UHGV virus genome: UHGV-1461890 | Reading direction: 5' to 3' (one strand) | Length of the DNA stretch: 41,432 nucleotides | DNA from: a virus | Program-made: the position numbers and the translations under genes | The notes under the pieces: generated by a model | What the model was told of the DNA's origin: nothing | The model's input: the letters and a program-made list of their open reading frames with translations, nothing else | The model's database searches: none | In this document: piece by piece, positions 15,917 through 41,432 of the stretch | Layout of the letters: every line of letters begins with the position of its first letter | Numbering within the stretch: position 1 is the stretch's first letter

Positions 15917-18900
15917 ATGGGAGCTAAAGATGTATATGAGCAGTTAAAACGAGAAAAACAACAAGGCAATTCTAAAGCCAAAAAAGTCTACGCTCAAATG
16001 ATGCAATCTAAAATAATAGATGAATTCAATTCTCTTATAAAGCATAATTCGGACTTTTACAATAAAACCAAGTCTCGTTTTTATGACGAAGATGACAACT
16101 TTATAGACATCTATCGTTCTGATTCAGAAGATTGGAAAAACACAGCGGTTTCCATGTCAAGTTCTGCTAGAGAAAAGTCTACAAATATAAGAAGTTTGCT
16201 GGATGAATATGGTTCGTATTATGATGCGGATACTGTATCGAGTATGTTAAAAACCCTTGATGAGCATGAAAAATTCTCTACTGACATTGTAAAACAAGCG
16301 GTAGAACAACATGACTATTTTTCCGAGTATAAAGACGAGAATGACTACAACCAAAAGGTTGTTATACCTAAAAATCAAAATGAAGAGTGGGCCTCAGCCA
16401 ATACTGAGGCTCTGAAAACTGAGATTGGCAACCTTGAAACATCTTATAAGGCATATTCAGAACTTAAATCAAAGAGAAATTTAAGAAGTTCTCAGCTTAT
16501 ATCCAACTATATAAAGTCAGGTTATACGAGAGATGAGGCAGTAAAATTAGCCGCTAAAGACAAGGATATTATCGAATACGATAAAAAGTTATCTGTTTAT
16601 GGAGATATGAGTAATGCTGAAAAATCTCTCTCCGAAAAGAAGCAGTTTTACAACAATGCCACTCGTGTTCAGGAAGGCTTATCTTTAAGCGGAATAACTG
16701 ACCCTTCATCCAAGCACTATGACCCAAATTATCTCAAGTATTCAGCAAAAGGTGAGGCTATGGGTGATGAGAAAAACGGTGGTTTTTTTACACCTGATAC
16801 TCAGCGCAAAAACCAAGTGGCTTACCTCCGTAACAATCCCGATATGTTGGAACTGTATGAAGAAACTGCCAACGATGCTAATGGCGCATCATGGGGAACT
16901 TCCGAAAGAATATTACTAGACCAAATTGAATATAAAGCCGCTAAGTATATGACAGATGAAGAGTTTTTAATTTACAATGCCTACTTAGGCAAGGGAGACA
17001 AAGAATCGGCTGATAAATATTTGGAGAGTATAGAGGAGACTTTAACCTCTCGTCAGGGTGCGGCGATTTCTGAACAGCAAGATACTTGGCTTAAAAAACA
17101 ATTATTTAGCGTTTATGCAGGACTCGACCAATGGGAACAAGGCATTATCAGTTTAGGTAACACCGAAGGAAAATATGACTCCCCTACAGGCGTACAGTTT
17201 GCCTCAGGCACAATAAGAGAAGACTTGGGTGCAATCGGTCAAGGTGCTTATGACTTAGGCGTTACTACAGGAAACATGCTCCCATCCATTTTGGTTTCAT
17301 ATCTCACAAGTGGTGTTGGTGGTGCAGTAGGTTTAGGCGCAAAGGCAGCAGGAACACTAGGCAAAGTAGCCGGTGCCGCAACCTTGGGAAGCTCGGCAGC
17401 AGGTAATGGTTATCAGGAAATGCTCAACCTTGGCTATGATAAGAGTCAGGCACAGGCTTATGGCACTCTTGTAGGCCTTTCCGAAGCAGGTCTTGAGTAT
17501 GTATTGGGTGGTATTTCATCCCTTGGTGGTACGGTTTCAGGTGGCATAACTGACAAGGTCGTTACTAAGTTAGTTTCTAACATGGATAAGGCTATCGCTA
17601 AGGTAGCCATTGGCGCAGGTGGTAAACTTGTAGGTAGTATGGTATCTGAATTTGGAGAAGAATACCTGCAAGAAGTATTAGACCCGGTATTTAAAAACAT
17701 AACGCTTAACACCGATGAGGATATAAGGTTATTCTCCTCCGAGGCTCTTTATGCAGGTATACTAGGTGCATTGTCAGCAGGTTTGCTTGAGGGTGGTTCG
17801 AGTATATCAGGTGAGGTTGCAACCTATAAAGCAGGTAAGGATGTTAAGAACACAGGTCAGTTAAGTAACCTTAAAAAGTTCGGCACATCATTTTCTGCTG
17901 ATACCGTTGCATATAAGATTGCAAGTCAGGTTGATGAGAACACCGATGCTTATACCATAGGTCAGCTGCTACATGAAGTGGGCGCAGATAGTTTATCTGA
18001 AGCAAATATAGCTGACATAGTAAAATCTCTTGAGAGGAAAAACATATCTCCCGAACACGCTCAAACCATTGCTGAGTGGTTAAACGCTTCTGTTCAAGGT
18101 GAGGTATTTAATCCTCTTCAGCGATTAGCTTTAAAAAATCCTGATATAGCACAAACCTTTAAGGATGTTATTATAAACCAGAACTCTACAGTAAATCAAA
18201 GGATGCAGAGTTATACCGACATCCTTCAAAATATCGCCAATGAAAAGGAAATTATAAAGGCTAACAAAAGCAAAGCAAAGGCTGAGAAGAAAGCTAATAA
18301 AACCAAAACAACCGAAGAAACAAAAACTACACCTTTTGTTCCTTTGTCTAATGAAGCAATTACTGCTTCTAAGATAGAATCACTAGCAAAAGAACTTGAA
18401 AGCGAAGGTGTATCACCTGAATTGGCTCAGGTTATGGCTCAGAGGAAGGTTTCTGAATCTTCAGAGGGTAAATCTGTTGCCGATACTGAAAATGCTATAG
18501 AGAACAAATTTGAAACCAATTTAGATGGACAAACACTCAACACAAAAACAGGTGATAGTGTTAATGTGTCTGAAATAGCCTCTATAAAAGATGGCAAAAT
18601 GACCTTAAAACTTGACAATGGTGAAACTGTAGATGCAGACGATATTAGTTTTGGTACTGAAGATGAGGGTTTAATCTATTCGACAGTATTAGACATGGGT
18701 GTTAATGCCGCTGTAGCAAACTCTCTTGTAAAAAATTACAGTCCATCGGACAAGCTCTCAGCAAGACAATATGCTCTTGGCATTAAAGAGGCATATAAGT
18801 ATGGCTCTTATGGTATGCCTATAAACGAAATATCTAAAAACGGTTTTGCCGCTGATTTAAGTGAGGCTCAGAGGACTCATGCCTATAACCTTGGCAAATC

Positions 18901-38353: not shown

Positions 38354-38702
38354 TATTGTCCTTAACCACTTAAAAAGTGGTAAGGAAATAACTCAGTTAG
38401 AGGCTACTCAAAAATATCGCATATTAAGGCTTGGAGCCATCATCTTTAACCTTCGCAAAGATGGTTATATCATTTCAACACGAATTGAGCATAAGCCTAA
38501 TCAATATGGAAACATCTCAAATTATGCAGTATATAAACTCTTGCTTAAAAAATACCTCATCGAATGGGAGACCTGCTATAACGAGGATTTTCCCGAACAA
38601 AGAGGCGAGATGATTGTTGAAGCCATAAACGAAGAAGAGGCTGCTAAACAGTTTGATGTGTTCCATGCAGTAATAATAGGAATAAGTGAGGTTAAAGGAT
38701 AA
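38313..38702 (+). CDS. hypothetical protein with N-terminal winged-helix-like region
   Basis: 129 aa overlapping the recT 3' end by ~40 nt; RBS GAGGTGA. Confidence 0.4.
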   Translation: MMEQTVQKKLSQYDIVLNHLKSGKEITQLEATQKYRILRLGAIIFNLRKDGYIISTRIEHKPNQYGNISNYAVYKLLLKKYLIEWETCYNEDFPEQRGEMIVEAINEEEAAKQFDVFHAVIIGISEVKG

Positions 38703-39043
38703 TGTTTAATTCAAATACGGAAGGACACCTTGTGGTTTTTGCACAACATGATAATTGCTCAAAAGAGTTTCTATTTGCAGTACCTTGGTATTTAGAGGTT
38801 CACAAAGGAGATGTTCTTTTGGTAGAGACAATGTATGGAGATGCTATTGCAACCGCCACAAGCGAAATGTTTGAAGGAAAAGATATAGATGAGGTTGCGA
38901 CAAAATTTGGTGCATATCTTCCCCTTAAAAAAGTAAAGGAAGTGGCAGGTATCAAAATTAGAGCAAACTTGAGGCAAAAACTCTTCGAAGAACTGAAAAC
39001 AAAATTATTGAGAACAGTTTTGGAGGTAGTGAGTCATGTTTAA
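38702..39043 (+). CDS. hypothetical protein
   Basis: 113 aa with start overlapping the upstream stop (TAATG). Confidence 0.4.
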   Translation: MFNSNTEGHLVVFAQHDNCSKEFLFAVPWYLEVHKGDVLLVETMYGDAIATATSEMFEGKDIDEVATKFGAYLPLKKVKEVAGIKIRANLRQKLFEELKTKLLRTVLEVVSHV

Positions 39044-39470
39044 TTTAGTAGTTTTGTCAGGCCGCTTAACCGCCGACCCGGAACTTAAAACCACTCCCAA
39101 CGGGGTATCCGTTTGCTCCTTCACCATAGCAGTAGATAAAAGGCACAGACAGGGCGAAGAGAGACAGGCTGATTTTATCAATATAGTGGCTTGGAGAGGT
39201 ACTGCTGAGTTTATAAGCAAACACTTCCACAAAGGCTCTATGATAGGCATTGAGGGCGCTGTTCAGACTCGTAAATACCAAGATAAGAATGGCAACAACC
39301 GTACTGCTTTTGAAATCGTTGTGAATAATGTGCAGTTTATTGAGTCTAAGAGGTCTCAAGATAATAGCGAAGGTAGTTCTTCACCTACACCTGAAAACGA
39401 CCCTCTGCCTCAATTTGCTGAGCATTTAGCAGGGGTTGAAGATATATCCGATGAGGATTGTCCGTTCTGA
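39036..39470 (+). CDS. ssb: single-stranded DNA-binding protein
   Basis: OB-fold block (LTADPELKTTPNGVSVCSFTIAV...ADFINIVAWRGTAEF) and an acidic C-terminal tail ending DEDCPF, which matches the SSB tail consensus DDDIPF. Confidence 0.85.
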   Translation: MFNLVVLSGRLTADPELKTTPNGVSVCSFTIAVDKRHRQGEERQADFINIVAWRGTAEFISKHFHKGSMIGIEGAVQTRKYQDKNGNNRTAFEIVVNNVQFIESKRSQDNSEGSSSPTPENDPLPQFAEHLAGVEDISDEDCPF

Positions 39471-39485
39471 TGGGAGGTATAGTCA

Positions 39486-40199
39486 ATGAGTGATACCATG
39501 AGTCTCTTTGACCTCCTCCCTGAAGAAGAGGCACAGTATTTTAAAAAGCAAAAGTCAACCGATTGGAAATGGACCATGGCAAATGACTATCCAAAAGAGA
39601 AAAATGGTCTCAAAGTGTTTAGTTGTTTTGCTTGTGGTGGTGGCTCTACTATGGGATATAAGTTAGCTGGTTGTGAGGTTTTAGGGTGTGTAGAAATAGA
39701 CCCTAAAATGAACGAGGTCTACATAAAAAACCATAATCCTAAGCATAACTTTCTTATGGATATAAGAAAATTTAACAAAATTCCTAATGAGAAACTGCCT
39801 GAAGAATTATTTAACCTTGATATACTCGATGGCTCTCCCCCCTGCACTACTTTCTCTATGGCTGGTGAACGAGAGGAAAGTTGGGGCAAGAAAAAGAAAT
39901 TTAGAGAAGGACAGGCTGAACAAACTCTTGATGATTTATCCTTTGTATTCATTGAAACGGTTGCAAAGTTAAGACCTAAAGTAATGATTATGGAGAATGT
40001 TGAAGGTCTTATAAAAGGTGAGGCGTGGAGCTATGTGCAGAGGATATATCAGCAATTAAATGATATAGGCTATCAAGTTAAGCATTGGTTATGTAAAGCT
40101 CATCTTATGGGTGTTCCACAACGAAGAAATCGAGTATTTTTTATAGCTTTGAGAGAAGACGTTGATTACGATTTGTGGGATTTAGATATCCCAAGATAA
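39486..40199 (+). CDS. truncated DNA (cytosine-5) methyltransferase (motifs I, IV, VI, VIII only)
   Basis: FSCFACGGGSTMG (motif I), GSPPCTTFS (motif IV), ENV (motif VI) and QRRNRVFFIA (motif VIII) are present. The ORF ends at aa 237 with no target-recognition domain or motifs IX/X, and no downstream frame continues it. Confidence 0.65.
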   Translation: MSDTMSLFDLLPEEEAQYFKKQKSTDWKWTMANDYPKEKNGLKVFSCFACGGGSTMGYKLAGCEVLGCVEIDPKMNEVYIKNHNPKHNFLMDIRKFNKIPNEKLPEELFNLDILDGSPPCTTFSMAGEREESWGKKKKFREGQAEQTLDDLSFVFIETVAKLRPKVMIMENVEGLIKGEAWSYVQRIYQQLNDIGYQVKHWLCKAHLMGVPQRRNRVFFIALREDVDYDLWDLDIPR

Positions 40200-40267
40200 A
40201 TACTTTAGGTGGGAAATGTTAGATAAACCACTTCAATATAAAATTATGTTTTAAAGGAGGCTGAGTG

Positions 40268-41014
40268 ATGGCAAACAAAAGAATGTTTTCAATGGACATA
40301 GCAGATAGTGATGCTTTTTTAGAGATGCCGCTATCTTCTCAGGCTTTATATTTTCATCTTTCGATGAGAGCAGATGACGATGGGTTTGTAAAGAATCCAA
40401 AGAAAACACAAAGGATAATAGGCGCTTCCGATGATGATTTAAAGATACTTATAGCGAAGAGATTTATTCTTCCTTTTGATTCAGGAATCGTAGTTATAAA
40501 GCATTGGAAAATCAATAATACCATTCGTTCTGACCGATACAAACCAACCACATATATTGAAGAAAAATCAATGCTGGTTGTTAAAGAAAACGGTGCCTAT
40601 ACGGAGGCTAAAAATCTTGGTATACCAAGTGGTATACCAAATGACAACCAAGTGGGTGACAGTTGGTTACCACAGTATAGTATAGGTAAGAGTAGTATAG
40701 ATTTAGGTAAGTATAGTTGTAGTTGTAGTAGCGAAAATGACAACCACAACAACAGCGACTTTCCCACAAAAAATGATGAGTTTTCCACCGACTTATCCAC
40801 CAATAGCCAATTTGAACTGCAAAACGGAAGTCTCGGAAGAGGTGTTGTTCTTCTCACACCTGAGCAGGATGAGGCTCTACTAGATAAGTTAGGCTTCGAT
40901 GGATACAACCACTATGTATCTAAACTTGCTGACTTCATTATTGAGAAGGAAGCAAAGGTAGGTAACCATTATGCAACCATACTCAAGTGGGCAAGAGAGG
41001 ATTCTAAACTTTAA
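40268..41014 (+). CDS. phage replisome organizer (Phage_rep_org_N-like N-terminal domain)
   Basis: ATG at 40268 after AGGAGG. The N-terminal block MFSMDIADSDAFLEMPLSSQALYFHLSMRADDDGFVKNPKK...IVVIKHWKINN matches the replisome-organizer N-domain pattern. A low-complexity linker carries DNA repeats. Confidence 0.7.
   Translation: MANKRMFSMDIADSDAFLEMPLSSQALYFHLSMRADDDGFVKNPKKTQRIIGASDDDLKILIAKRFILPFDSGIVVIKHWKINNTIRSDRYKPTTYIEEKSMLVVKENGAYTEAKNLGIPSGIPNDNQVGDSWLPQYSIGKSSIDLGKYSCSCSSENDNHNNSDFPTKNDEFSTDLSTNSQFELQNGSLGRGVVLLTPEQDEALLDKLGFDGYNHYVSKLADFIIEKEAKVGNHYATILKWAREDSKL
40621..40735. repeat. cluster of short direct repeats (CCAAGTGG x2, TAGGTAAG x2, AGTATAG x3, TTGTAG x2) inside the replisome-organizer gene; candidate origin iterons
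   Basis: Repeats seen in the sequence. They coincide with the low-complexity protein linker, as is typical for an ori embedded in a rep gene. Confidence 0.45.
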
Positions 41015-41064
41015 ATAATGCTGAGGCATTAAAAAATAAAAATTAAAACTAAGGAGAAAAAATT

Positions 41065-41352
41065 ATGTTAAACAAGAAAGTAATTATCAGAGCAGACAGA
41101 GCAGGAGTTTTCTTTGGAACACTCAAAAAGAAAAACGGCACAGAAGTAACCCTTAGCGATTGTCGCAGATTATGGTATTGGGATGGTGCTGCAAGTTTAT
41201 CACAGTTAGCGGTTGATGGAACTAATAACCCAAGAGAGTGTAAATTCACCGTAACTGTACCCGAAATAATCATAACAGGTGTGATTGAAATTATCCCTTG
41301 CACAGATAAGGCGATTGAATCTATTGAGGGTGTAAAGGAATGGAAAAGATAA
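41065..41352 (+). CDS. hypothetical protein
   Basis: 95 aa with RBS AAGGAGAAAA. Confidence 0.45.
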   Translation: MLNKKVIIRADRAGVFFGTLKKKNGTEVTLSDCRRLWYWDGAASLSQLAVDGTNNPRECKFTVTVPEIIITGVIEIIPCTDKAIESIEGVKEWKR

Positions 41353-41432
41353 AAGAATTTTTAAAAATTGAACTTGGCTCTGGCTCTGGCTATGGCTCTG
41401 GCTCTGGCGATGGCTCTGGCTATGGCTATGGC
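41340..41432 (+). CDS. N-terminal part of a Gly-Ser-Tyr/Asp repeat protein (MEKIKEFLKIELGSGSGYGSGSGDG...), open to the window end
   Basis: ATG at 41340 overlaps the upstream stop (ATGGAAAAGATAA). The frame stays open through 18-bp repeat units to the last base and is in frame with the ORF at the window start once the 18-nt terminal overlap is applied. Confidence 0.5.
   Translation, partial: MEKIKEFLKIELGSGSGYGSGSGDGSGYGYG
41376..41432 (+). repeat. 18-bp coding tandem repeat variants (GGCTCTGGCTCTGGCKAT / GGCTCTGGCTAT) at the window end
   Basis: Same repeat family as nt 1-47; nt 41404-41421 are identical to nt 1-18. Confidence 0.8.

What the first reader, a model, noticed from the sequence alone, without database searches (positions are those of the whole stretch)
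39486..40199. C5-cytosine methyltransferase gene ending after motif VIII (no TRD, no motifs IX/X)
Motifs I (FACGGGSTMG), IV (SPPCTTFS), VI (ENV) and VIII (QRRNRVFFIA) are intact, but the ORF stops at 237 aa and no other frame continues it. One possibility is a decayed methyltransferase. Another is the alpha half of a split enzyme, as in M.AquI, whose beta half lies elsewhere, since none is visible nearby. A third is a catalytically dead fragment kept for another role, such as a DNA-binding decoy or anti-restriction factor.
Basis: partly seen in the sequence, partly recalled or inferred. Interest (0 to 1): 0.5.

Follow-up and report, generated by a model that had tools for sequence, protein, structure and literature searches.

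The report
Truncated phage cytosine methyltransferase gene remnant
A temperate phage genome keeps only the front 63% of a DNA cytosine methyltransferase gene, most likely the fresh leftover of a deletion and unable to modify DNA alone, although related phages naturally make this same front half as a separate subunit beside one or two partner subunits.

Summary
ORF 39486..40199 (+) encodes 237 aa with C5-methyltransferase motifs I, IV, VI and VIII. It stops 14 residues after motif VIII. No TRD or motif IX/X coding sequence exists in any frame of the window, which is the whole contig and probably a near-complete phage genome.

The 119 closest homologues (80-91% identity) are all 348-381 aa. DNA homology to them ends at 40189, inside the codon for Met236. 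It resumes at 40253, at the ribosome-binding site of the next gene. The 63 bp in between are unmatched. Relative to the closest locus, about 1.3 kb is missing.

Six related phage loci do encode a naturally split enzyme: an alpha ORF of 229-234 aa overlapping one or two beta ORFs of about 140-150 aa. Their alphas end in a conserved tail that carries the beta ribosome-binding site. The window gene lacks that junction and has the fused-type linker, cut abruptly.

Best reading: a recent deletion remnant of a fused-type gene, inactive by itself (about 0.7). The remnant shows no decay (dN/dS 0.03-0.09, as in intact genes), so an orphan alpha subunit, another retained role or an assembly artefact are not excluded. 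The finding itself is ordinary. The split alpha/beta1/beta2 relatives are the more interesting by-product.

The parts
39486..40199 (+). Truncated C5-cytosine methyltransferase ORF (237 aa): motifs I-VIII only, no TRD, no motifs IX/X
39486..40189 (+). Segment homologous to the N-terminal (catalytic) half of fused 365-380-aa relatives. In blastn alignments starting at window 39501-39551 it is 81-90% identical in DNA to L001-L007. It is 96% identical in protein core to P0003
39627..39656 (+). Motif I FACGGGSTMG (cofactor-binding loop)
   Evidence: aligned with motif I of M.HaeIII and 8YF3
39834..39857 (+). Motif IV SPPCTTFS with the catalytic Cys120
   Evidence: Cys-98 of SpCmoX and Cys-81 of M.HhaI named in PMC12783734
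39993..40001 (+). Motif VI ENV
40119..40148 (+). Motif VIII QRRNRVFFIA
40190..40252 (+). 63-bp filler of unknown origin. It supplies the last base of codon 235 (turning the ATG of relatives into ATC), then Pro-Arg-stop, then a short spacer. It replaces the 3' 40% of the methyltransferase gene and, relative to L006, a whole 298-aa gene
40253..41014 (+). RBS (AGGAGG) and replication-organizer-like gene (249 aa from GTG 40265; the JGI call is 248 aa). Homology to relatives resumes exactly here, a usual mosaic module boundary
39036..39470 (+). SSB gene, the conserved upstream neighbour of the methyltransferase slot in nearly all related loci examined

Best explanation
The ORF is the 5' remnant of a fused-type (single-chain, ~370 aa) phage C5-cytosine DNA methyltransferase. 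The gene sits in the variable modification slot between the SSB gene and the replication-organizer gene of a temperate phage of gut or rumen Clostridia. An illegitimate recombination or deletion removed everything from codon 236 to just upstream of the next gene's ribosome-binding site. That codon lies at the start of the swappable C-terminal cassette (TRD plus motifs IX/X). Sixty-three bases of foreign or unrecognisable sequence were left, and they close the frame after two codons. The product keeps the cofactor loop, the catalytic cysteine and motifs VI and VIII. It lacks the DNA-recognition domain and motif X, which completes the cofactor pocket, so by itself it should not modify DNA. The event is evolutionarily recent, which is why the remnant still looks intact. 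Shown here: the truncation, its exact breakpoints, the absence of a partner in the contig and the uniqueness of the allele. Inferred: the deletion mechanism, the inactivity and the recency.
For: (1) All 119 closest homologues (80-91% identity) are 348-381 aa. The exact 237-aa protein is a one-member, one-contig cluster. (2) The protein alignment runs through ...DYDLWDLD and then reads I-P-R-stop where relatives read M-SFNYEP... plus ~135 further residues. (3) DNA homology to L004, L006 and L007 ends at 40189 and resumes at 40253. Relative to L006, 1289 bp are absent: 411 bp of the methyltransferase gene plus a 298-aa gene. (4) No C-terminal half was found in six frames by tblastn or by two HMMs, while the controls are strongly positive. 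(5) Both contig ends lie in the same GSG(D/Y)G-coding repeat in the same frame. The distance from the replication gene to the terminase gene is ~4.4 kb, as in relative L170. The genome is therefore essentially complete. (6) The gene has the fused-type linker, not the conserved split-type tail RND[VI]Y..W[RK].. with its embedded SD and ATG seen in six split loci. Its closest relative in the N-half tree is fused P0003, at 96%. (7) About 75 close loci from viral and genome collections include no other alpha-only case. They do include several frameshifted copies (L088, L115, L116, L145, L146, L161, L163), so decay is common in this slot. (8) The slot is variable: the closest relatives by replication gene carry an unrelated, circularly permuted 513-648-aa C5 methyltransferase there. 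(9) N-terminal fragments of C5 methyltransferases are inactive alone (M.SssI, M.BspRI, M.HhaI; PMC3404938). Motif X supplies a cofactor-contacting residue: Asn-304 in M.HhaI and Arg-350 in SpCmoX (PMC12783734).
Against: The remnant shows no decay. It has 0 private substitutions at columns conserved in at least 98% of homologues, and 1 at 95%, which is the junction residue itself. Pairwise dN/dS is 0.03-0.09, the same as among intact genes at 0.014-0.13. It keeps its start codon and SD. It ends only 14 residues beyond where natural alpha subunits diverge, inside the zone where split C5 methyltransferases still assemble. So it could be a working alpha-like polypeptide. The source of the 63-bp filler was not found, so the ancestral state is inferred from relatives that are at most 90% identical in DNA. 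The allele is a singleton from a metagenome assembly and read support could not be checked.
Confidence: 0.72

Rival explanations
1. Orphan alpha subunit. The 237-aa product is functional as the catalytic half of a split enzyme and assembles with beta subunits (TRD plus motifs IX/X) supplied in trans by a co-resident split-type prophage, a co-infecting phage or the host.
For: Natural alpha/beta splitting exists in this very family, in six loci and 48 stand-alone beta clusters. Split and fused N-halves are 83-96% identical and interchange. The M.SssI fragments [1-239] and [240-386] complement without overlap when the break lies in the proximal variable region. The remnant is undecayed.
Against: No beta is present in the window. 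In 6 of 6 split loci the beta overlaps its own alpha, so any beta donor brings its own alpha and the orphan adds nothing selectable. The window gene lacks the conserved split junction. The allele is a singleton.
Confidence: 0.08
2. Assembly artefact. The contig is a chimera or mis-join at the boundary between the highly conserved N-half and the variable cassette, and the real phage has an intact (fused or split) gene.
For: The contig is a metagenome assembly. The break sits exactly where sequence shared among co-occurring phages ends. The allele and the filler were seen nowhere else. The contig also broke at a repeat.
Against: A graph mis-join needs a shared k-mer followed by real sequence, so some genome must still carry N-half followed by filler. 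The filler joins cleanly to the normal RBS of the next gene. Synteny and spacing on both sides are normal.
Confidence: 0.08
3. The fragment is kept for another role. The alpha-only protein is retained as a cofactor-binding or DNA-binding protein, for example an anti-restriction decoy, a SAM sink or a regulator.
For: There is only the lack of decay and the retained translation signals. Most cofactor-contacting residues described for SpCmoX lie in the N-half.
Against: No recurrent alpha-only lineage was found among ~190 close homologues and loci. There is no new domain or motif. All sequence-specific DNA contacts of C5 methyltransferases are in the missing small domain (PMC3404938).
Confidence: 0.07
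4. The partner lies in unsampled DNA. The contig is not closed, and a beta gene sits in the gap inside the GSG-repeat region.
For: The contig ends have no exact overlap. The join across the repeat was not confirmed by an intact homologue.
Against: Both ends are in the same repeat, frame and orientation. The replication-to-terminase distance equals that of relative L170. In all split relatives the beta is directly downstream of its alpha, not elsewhere.
Confidence: 0.03

Closest known systems
Fused ~370-aa C5-cytosine methyltransferases of related Clostridia phages and prophages (P0002-P0120; loci L001-L007, L088-L165)
   Same: 80-91% protein identity over residues 1-235. Same position directly after the SSB gene. 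Same motifs I-VIII and the same linker ...DV.YDL.DLD.
   Different: They continue with a variable TRD and the conserved C-end ...YICGMSVPPIMIKRIVTRLIESGVF (motifs IX/X). The window gene stops at codon 237 and has none of this.
Naturally split alpha/beta1(/beta2) relatives found here (L131, L173, L174, L175, L178, L180)
   Same: The alpha length of 229-234 aa is almost the same as 237 aa. N-half identity to the window is 84-87%. The genomic slot is the same.
   Different: Their alphas end in a conserved tail (RNDVYKGWRE...) that overlaps an SD and the ATG of a beta ORF beginning MLQNELDM.FNYEP. One or two betas always follow. The window has the fused linker, no such junction and no beta.
M.AquI (alpha: motifs I-VIII plus part of the variable region; beta: rest of the variable region plus IX-X) and M.EcoHK31I
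   Same: A polypeptide carrying motifs I-VIII that ends in the proximal variable region (PMC3404938).
   Different: M.AquI has its beta gene alongside and needs it for activity. No partner is present here. No close sequence relationship was tested.
[quoted passage not shown]
   Same: The break lies between motif VIII and the TRD, the position that gave the best complementation for M.SssI ([1-239] + [240-386]).
   Different: Those fragments are laboratory constructs. They are inactive alone and active only with a co-expressed C-terminal fragment.
SpCmoX, the DNA cytosine C5-carboxymethyltransferase of Synechococcus phage S-B43 (PDB 8YF3)
   Same: It is the best solved-structure match by far, at E 3e-33 against 1e-11 for M.HaeIII. 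It shares the SPPC motif and the long insertion between motifs IV and VI.
   Different: CmoX is defined by Arg-350 in motif X, which binds the carboxyl of Cx-SAM. The window protein lacks that region. Its fused relatives have Met there (GMSVPP against GRMVPP). No CmoA-like gene was seen in the window ORFs scanned.

Membership tests
C5-cytosine DNA methyltransferase (Pfam PF00145, NCBIfam TIGR00675) | Motif I (F-x-G-x-G cofactor loop) | tested here: met
   FACGGGSTMG, aa 48-57, aligned to motif I of M.HaeIII, M.HhaI and 8YF3
C5-cytosine DNA methyltransferase (Pfam PF00145, NCBIfam TIGR00675) | Motif IV Pro-Cys with the catalytic cysteine | tested here: met
   GSPPCTTFS with Cys120, aligned to PPC of M.HaeIII and SPPC of 8YF3. 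It is invariant in A1
C5-cytosine DNA methyltransferase (Pfam PF00145, NCBIfam TIGR00675) | Motifs VI (ENV) and VIII (Q-x-R-x-R) | tested here: met
   ENVEG at aa 170-174 and QRRNR at aa 212-216
C5-cytosine DNA methyltransferase (Pfam PF00145, NCBIfam TIGR00675) | Target recognition domain (variable region) | tested here: not met
   The ORF ends 14 residues after motif VIII. The Pfam match covers only 2-167 of 324. See alignment A1
C5-cytosine DNA methyltransferase (Pfam PF00145, NCBIfam TIGR00675) | Motifs IX and X (small-domain core; completion of the cofactor pocket) | tested here: not met
   Absent from the ORF and from all six frames of the window. The controls were positive
C5-cytosine DNA methyltransferase (Pfam PF00145, NCBIfam TIGR00675) | Transfer of a methyl group to cytosine C5 in DNA | not testable with these tools
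   Needs bisulfite, nanopore, LC-MS or restriction-protection assays
Naturally split alpha/beta C5 methyltransferase (M.AquI type; split relatives L131, L173-L175, L178, L180) | Alpha polypeptide with motifs I-VIII ending in the proximal variable region | tested here: met
   237 aa against 229-234 aa in natural alphas
Naturally split alpha/beta C5 methyltransferase (M.AquI type; split relatives L131, L173-L175, L178, L180) | Beta gene (TRD plus IX/X) adjacent to or overlapping the alpha gene | tested here: not met
   The next gene, 40265..41014, is a replication-organizer-like gene. No beta exists in any frame
Naturally split alpha/beta C5 methyltransferase (M.AquI type; split relatives L131, L173-L175, L178, L180) | Conserved split junction: alpha tail RND[VI]Y..W[RK].. 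overlapping the SD and ATG of the beta (MLQNELDM...) | tested here: not met
   The window reads REDVDYDLWDLDIPR*, the fused-type linker cut short
CmoX (DNA cytosine C5-carboxymethyltransferase, PMC12783734) | SPPC motif | tested here: met
   S117-P118-P119-C120
CmoX (DNA cytosine C5-carboxymethyltransferase, PMC12783734) | Arg-350 in motif X contacting the carboxymethyl group of Cx-SAM | tested here: not met
   The region is missing in the window protein. In fused relative P0002 the aligned residue is Met (cgMsvpp against vgRmvpp)
CmoX (DNA cytosine C5-carboxymethyltransferase, PMC12783734) | Phage-encoded CmoA (Cx-SAM synthase) in the neighbourhood | tested here: inconclusive
   No methyltransferase-fold or CmoA-like Pfam hit in the ~45 window ORFs scanned. 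Small ORFs were not all scanned

The most novel reading that the evidence does not exclude
The truncated product is a working orphan alpha subunit. Because this phage family naturally runs a modular enzyme (one catalytic alpha plus exchangeable beta specificity subunits), an alpha-only phage could borrow beta subunits from co-resident or co-infecting relatives. Alternatively, the alpha alone may have been co-opted as a cofactor-binding or DNA-binding anti-defence factor.
Probability: 0.08. Interest if true: 0.6.

Novelty: new member of a known kind. Interest (0 to 1): 0.25.

Why it matters
For this window it matters little. A phage that has just lost the specificity half of its protective methyltransferase is an ordinary snapshot of gene turnover in a variable anti-restriction slot. 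It should be annotated as a truncated, probably inactive gene rather than as a methyltransferase.

The wider context is more useful. The family is the closest sequence relative of the recently described carboxymethyltransferase CmoX, but it has Met at the cofactor-discriminating position. It exists in fused form and in a recurrent one-alpha/two-beta split form. If that split form is active, it would be a modular way for phages to obtain two methylation specificities from one catalytic subunit. It would also be a natural counterpart of engineered split methyltransferases.

Tried and rejected
- Megablast of 38700-41432 against 50,697 phage records found no match.
- An exact search for the junction (GATATCCCAAGATAAATACTTTAGG) in IMG/VR gave 0 hits. 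A 24-mer from the filler in the metagenome collection also gave 0 hits. The window itself is evidently not in those collections, and the look-up of its exact protein found nothing.
- blastn-short and word-7 blastn of the 63-bp filler against the loci held at the time (87, 167, and the five loci L168-L172), and tblastn of its two open peptide frames, gave only chance-level hits. The origin of the filler remains unknown.
- A promoter/terminator scan of 39300-40500 found nothing above the shuffle expectation on the + strand.
- L161 and L163 at first looked like further split genes at the same boundary. They are single-base frameshifts in A or T runs without an SD or ATG, so I treat them as errors or pseudogenes.
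- I considered that the long 513-648-aa methyltransferases in the same slot might be N-half plus tandem C-halves. They are an unrelated, circularly permuted multi-TRD type with no hit to the C-half HMM.
- A degenerate pattern for the split junction found only the L131 contig in IMG/VR. Split forms are therefore rare there and come mainly from ENA and Logan assemblies.
- The join of the two contig ends through the repeat gene could not be confirmed with an intact homologue. The only hits, L009 and L010, also start at that gene.
- Two literature searches for split or multi-beta phage C5 methyltransferases returned nothing specific.

Full report
**Observation**

The window has an ATG-started ORF at 39486..40199 on the + strand. 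It encodes 237 aa and ends in TAA. A GGGAGG sequence lies nine bases upstream.

The translation contains four methyltransferase motifs:
- motif I, FACGGGSTMG
- motif IV, SPPCTTFS, with the catalytic cysteine
- motif VI, ENV
- motif VIII, QRRNRVFFIA

Pfam PF00145 matches at E 8.7e-39 but only over profile positions 2-167 of 324. NCBIfam TIGR00675 matches positions 3-164 of 329. Alignments to solved structures stop at about residue 213 of a 372-aa chain (8YF3) and about residue 167 of M.HaeIII. The other two frames close within 11 and 22 codons after the stop. The next gene begins at 40265.

**Nature of the window**

The exact protein is on record once, on a contig of 41,432 bp, so the window is the whole contig. 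It encodes:
- small and large terminase subunits, a P22-like portal, a capsid protein and tail proteins
- a 3,782-aa protein with an ART-PolyVal domain
- an amidase endolysin
- a serine integrase and CI/Cro-like repressors
- YqaJ and RecT recombination proteins, an HTH_39 protein and SSB
- the truncated methyltransferase, a replication-organizer-like protein, DUF6948 and DUF1064

It is a temperate phage genome.

Both contig ends lie in the same GSG(D/Y)G-coding repeat, in the same frame and orientation. The distance from the replication gene to the terminase gene (~4.4 kb across the ends) equals that in relative L170. The genome is therefore probably complete apart from some repeat units, though this is not proven.

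Related sequences come from MAG contigs labelled Acutalibacteraceae, Christensenellaceae and other Clostridia, from gut and rumen-type samples.

**Is the rest of the enzyme anywhere?**

Three searches over all six frames of the window found no C-terminal half:

| Search | Best hit in window | Positive control |
|---|---|---|
| tblastn, 109 C-terminal halves of full-length homologues | E 0.057 | not run |
| HMM of those 109 halves | E 0.87 (6.4 bits) | 1e-60 on L006 |
| HMM of 50 stand-alone beta subunits | E 0.27 | none run for this HMM; the fused-C-half HMM scored E 1e-49 to 4e-68 on known beta ORFs |

No other methyltransferase-like Pfam domain was found in the roughly 45 ORFs scanned.

**What relatives look like**

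The 119 best homologues are 80-91% identical and 348-381 aa long. In alignment A1 the window protein matches through ...REDVDYDLWDLD and then reads I-P-R-stop. The relatives read M-SFNYEP..., then a variable TRD, then the conserved end ...YICGMSVPPIMIKRIVTRLIESGVF.

At the DNA level, homology to L004, L006 and L007 ends at 40189. The third base of the Met codon is changed, ATG to ATC. Homology resumes at 40253, at the AGGAGG of the next gene. Relative to L006, 1,289 bp are absent: the last 411 bp of the methyltransferase gene and a whole 298-aa gene.

The 63 bases in between match nothing in any fetched locus, in IMG/VR or in the metagenome collection.

The right-hand boundary is an ordinary mosaic boundary. 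In every relative of the replication gene, homology starts at its RBS or start codon and the upstream sequence differs.

The slot between SSB and the replication genes is variable. The closest relatives by replication gene (76-78% identity) carry an unrelated, circularly permuted, multi-TRD C5 methyltransferase of 513-648 aa there.

**The unexpected turn: natural split forms**

While classifying about 75 related loci, I found that L131 has an N-half ORF of 233 aa followed by two complete C-halves in other frames.

A search with the first of these returned 48 protein clusters. Nearly all are 138-175 aa long, so they are stand-alone C-halves. All five contexts fetched (L173, L174, L175, L178, L180) share the L131 layout:
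- an alpha ORF of 229-234 aa with a PF00145 match, following the SSB gene in four of them and an S-adenosylmethionine synthetase-like gene in L180
- a beta ORF of 140-153 aa that overlaps the alpha end by 14-17 nt

In five of the six loci a second beta with a different TRD follows. The C-half HMM scores these second betas at E 1e-52 to 1e-68.

The split junction is conserved:
- The alphas end ...RVFF[IV]A[IL]RND[VI]Y[KER][EGR]W[RK]...
- This tail is encoded by the Shine-Dalgarno sequence and start codon of the beta.
- The betas begin MLQNELDM.FNYEP or MALQHELDM.

This is therefore a real, recurrent alpha/beta1(/beta2) architecture, not a set of sequencing errors. By contrast, L161 and L163 are plain homopolymer frameshifts.

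In the N-half, split alphas are not monophyletic. Each is 91-96% identical to some fused form and only 83-89% identical to the other split alphas. The N-half therefore recombines between fused and split versions.

**Where the window gene belongs**

It is the sister of fused P0003, at 96% identity in the core. It has the fused-type linker DVDYDLWDLD, and it lacks the split-type tail, SD and beta start. It is therefore a fused-type gene cut at the first codon of the exchangeable cassette, not a split-type alpha that lost its neighbours.

Among the top 120 homologues and about 75 close loci it is the only alpha-only case. Several frameshifted copies occur (L088, L115, L116, L145, L146, L161, L163), so inactivation in this slot is not rare.

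**Age of the event**

The remnant shows no decay:
- It has no private substitution at columns conserved in at least 98% of 119 homologues. It has one at the 95% level, which is the junction residue itself.
- Nei-Gojobori dN/dS against relatives is 0.03-0.09, compared with 0.014-0.13 (mean 0.046) among intact genes.
- dS to the nearest sampled gene (L004) is 0.46 and dN is 0.026. From these I estimate that only a few percent of the window's branch could have been neutral.

So either the truncation is very recent or the fragment is still constrained. These data cannot tell the two apart.

**Function**

This part rests on established knowledge and on papers read here. In C5 methyltransferases all sequence-specific DNA contacts are made by the small domain, which comprises the TRD and motif IX. 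[quoted passage not shown] They can assemble with C-terminal fragments, best when the break lies between motif VIII and the TRD. M.AquI and M.EcoHK31I are natural two-polypeptide enzymes (PMC3404938). Motif X provides a cofactor-pocket residue: Asn-304 in M.HhaI and Arg-350 in SpCmoX (PMC12783734).

The window product should therefore be inactive alone, although it is structurally equivalent to a natural alpha subunit. Trans-complementation by a beta from a related split-type phage is biochemically conceivable. However, every beta seen sits directly behind its own alpha, so an orphan alpha would add nothing selectable.

**Family identity**

The best solved-structure match is 8YF3 (E 3e-33, against 1e-11 for M.HaeIII). 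8YF3 is SpCmoX, the DNA cytosine C5-carboxymethyltransferase of Synechococcus phage S-B43. The paper defines candidate CmoX enzymes by the SPPC motif plus Arg-350. The window protein has SPPC but lacks the region containing residue 350. Its fused relatives have Met at that position. The family is therefore CmoX-like in sequence, but it does not meet the published criterion. Its cofactor is presumed, not shown, to be SAM.

**Verdict**

The most likely explanation (about 0.7) is a recent deletion remnant of a fused-type phage C5 methyltransferase that is inactive on its own. The rivals are:
- an orphan alpha working with a trans-supplied beta (0.08)
- an assembly artefact (0.08)
- a fragment retained for another role (0.07)
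- a partner hidden in the repeat gap (0.03)

The finding itself is ordinary. The split alpha/beta1/beta2 relatives and the Met at the cofactor-discriminating position are the items that deserve follow-up.

Noticed in passing
L131:2998-4547; L173:3313-4859; L174:3316-4462; L175:3313-4865; L178:2313-3835; L180:2325-3847: A recurrent, naturally split form of this methyltransferase family. An alpha ORF (229-234 aa, motifs I-VIII) overlaps a beta ORF (140-153 aa, TRD plus IX/X) by 14-17 nt. In 5 of 6 loci a second beta with a different TRD follows. The junction is conserved, with the SD and ATG embedded in the alpha tail. 48 stand-alone beta clusters are in the protein database. This may be a one-catalytic-subunit, two-specificity enzyme. 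I found no description of it in two literature searches.
   Followed up: partly
P0002 residues ~345-351 (GMSVPP), and all fused relatives and betas in A1 and A3: At the motif X position that is Asn-304 in M.HhaI (SAM) and Arg-350 in SpCmoX (carboxy-SAM), this family has an invariant Met. The family is much closer in sequence to CmoX (E 2e-35) than to M.HaeIII or M.HhaI, so its cofactor and product are not certain.
   Followed up: partly
L168:3049-4995; L170:2950-4800; L171:3230-4771: The closest relatives by replication gene carry an unrelated C5 methyltransferase of 513-648 aa in the same SSB-to-replication slot. It is circularly permuted (motif IV near the N-end, motif I LFDGIGGF near the C-end) and has a long variable middle, probably several TRDs.
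   Followed up: partly
L174:4459-5349; L006:1988-2884; L001:7240-8136: A 296-298-aa gene with a CxxxCxxC motif (SRGCPRGCPFC; weak Pfam Radical_SAM hit) sits directly after the methyltransferase or beta gene in several relatives. It is absent from the window (tblastn found no hit). Function unknown.
   Followed up: partly
L180:1519-2307: A 262-aa protein with an S-adenosylmethionine synthetase N-terminal domain is encoded immediately upstream of the split alpha gene. It may supply cofactor for the modification enzyme.
   Followed up: no
window 15917-27265 (+): A single 3,782-aa ORF occupies 27% of the genome. The only Pfam hit is an ADP-ribosyltransferase domain of polyvalent proteins (ART-PolyVal, aa 2188-2354, E 1.8e-21).
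   Followed up: partly
window 41349-41432 and 1-~200 (+): Both contig ends lie in a gene with GSG(D/Y)G-coding tandem repeats, in the same frame. The assembly evidently broke there. Contigs L009 and L010 of relatives also start at this gene. This suggests a circular or permuted genome with a repeat-rich small protein.
   Followed up: partly
L161:3540-3700; L163:3500-3680; L088:3800-3940; L115, L116, L145, L146 N-halves: Several related methyltransferase genes are interrupted by single frameshifts, two of them in A or T runs just after motif VIII. These are either assembly errors or frequent pseudogenisation of this slot.
   Followed up: partly
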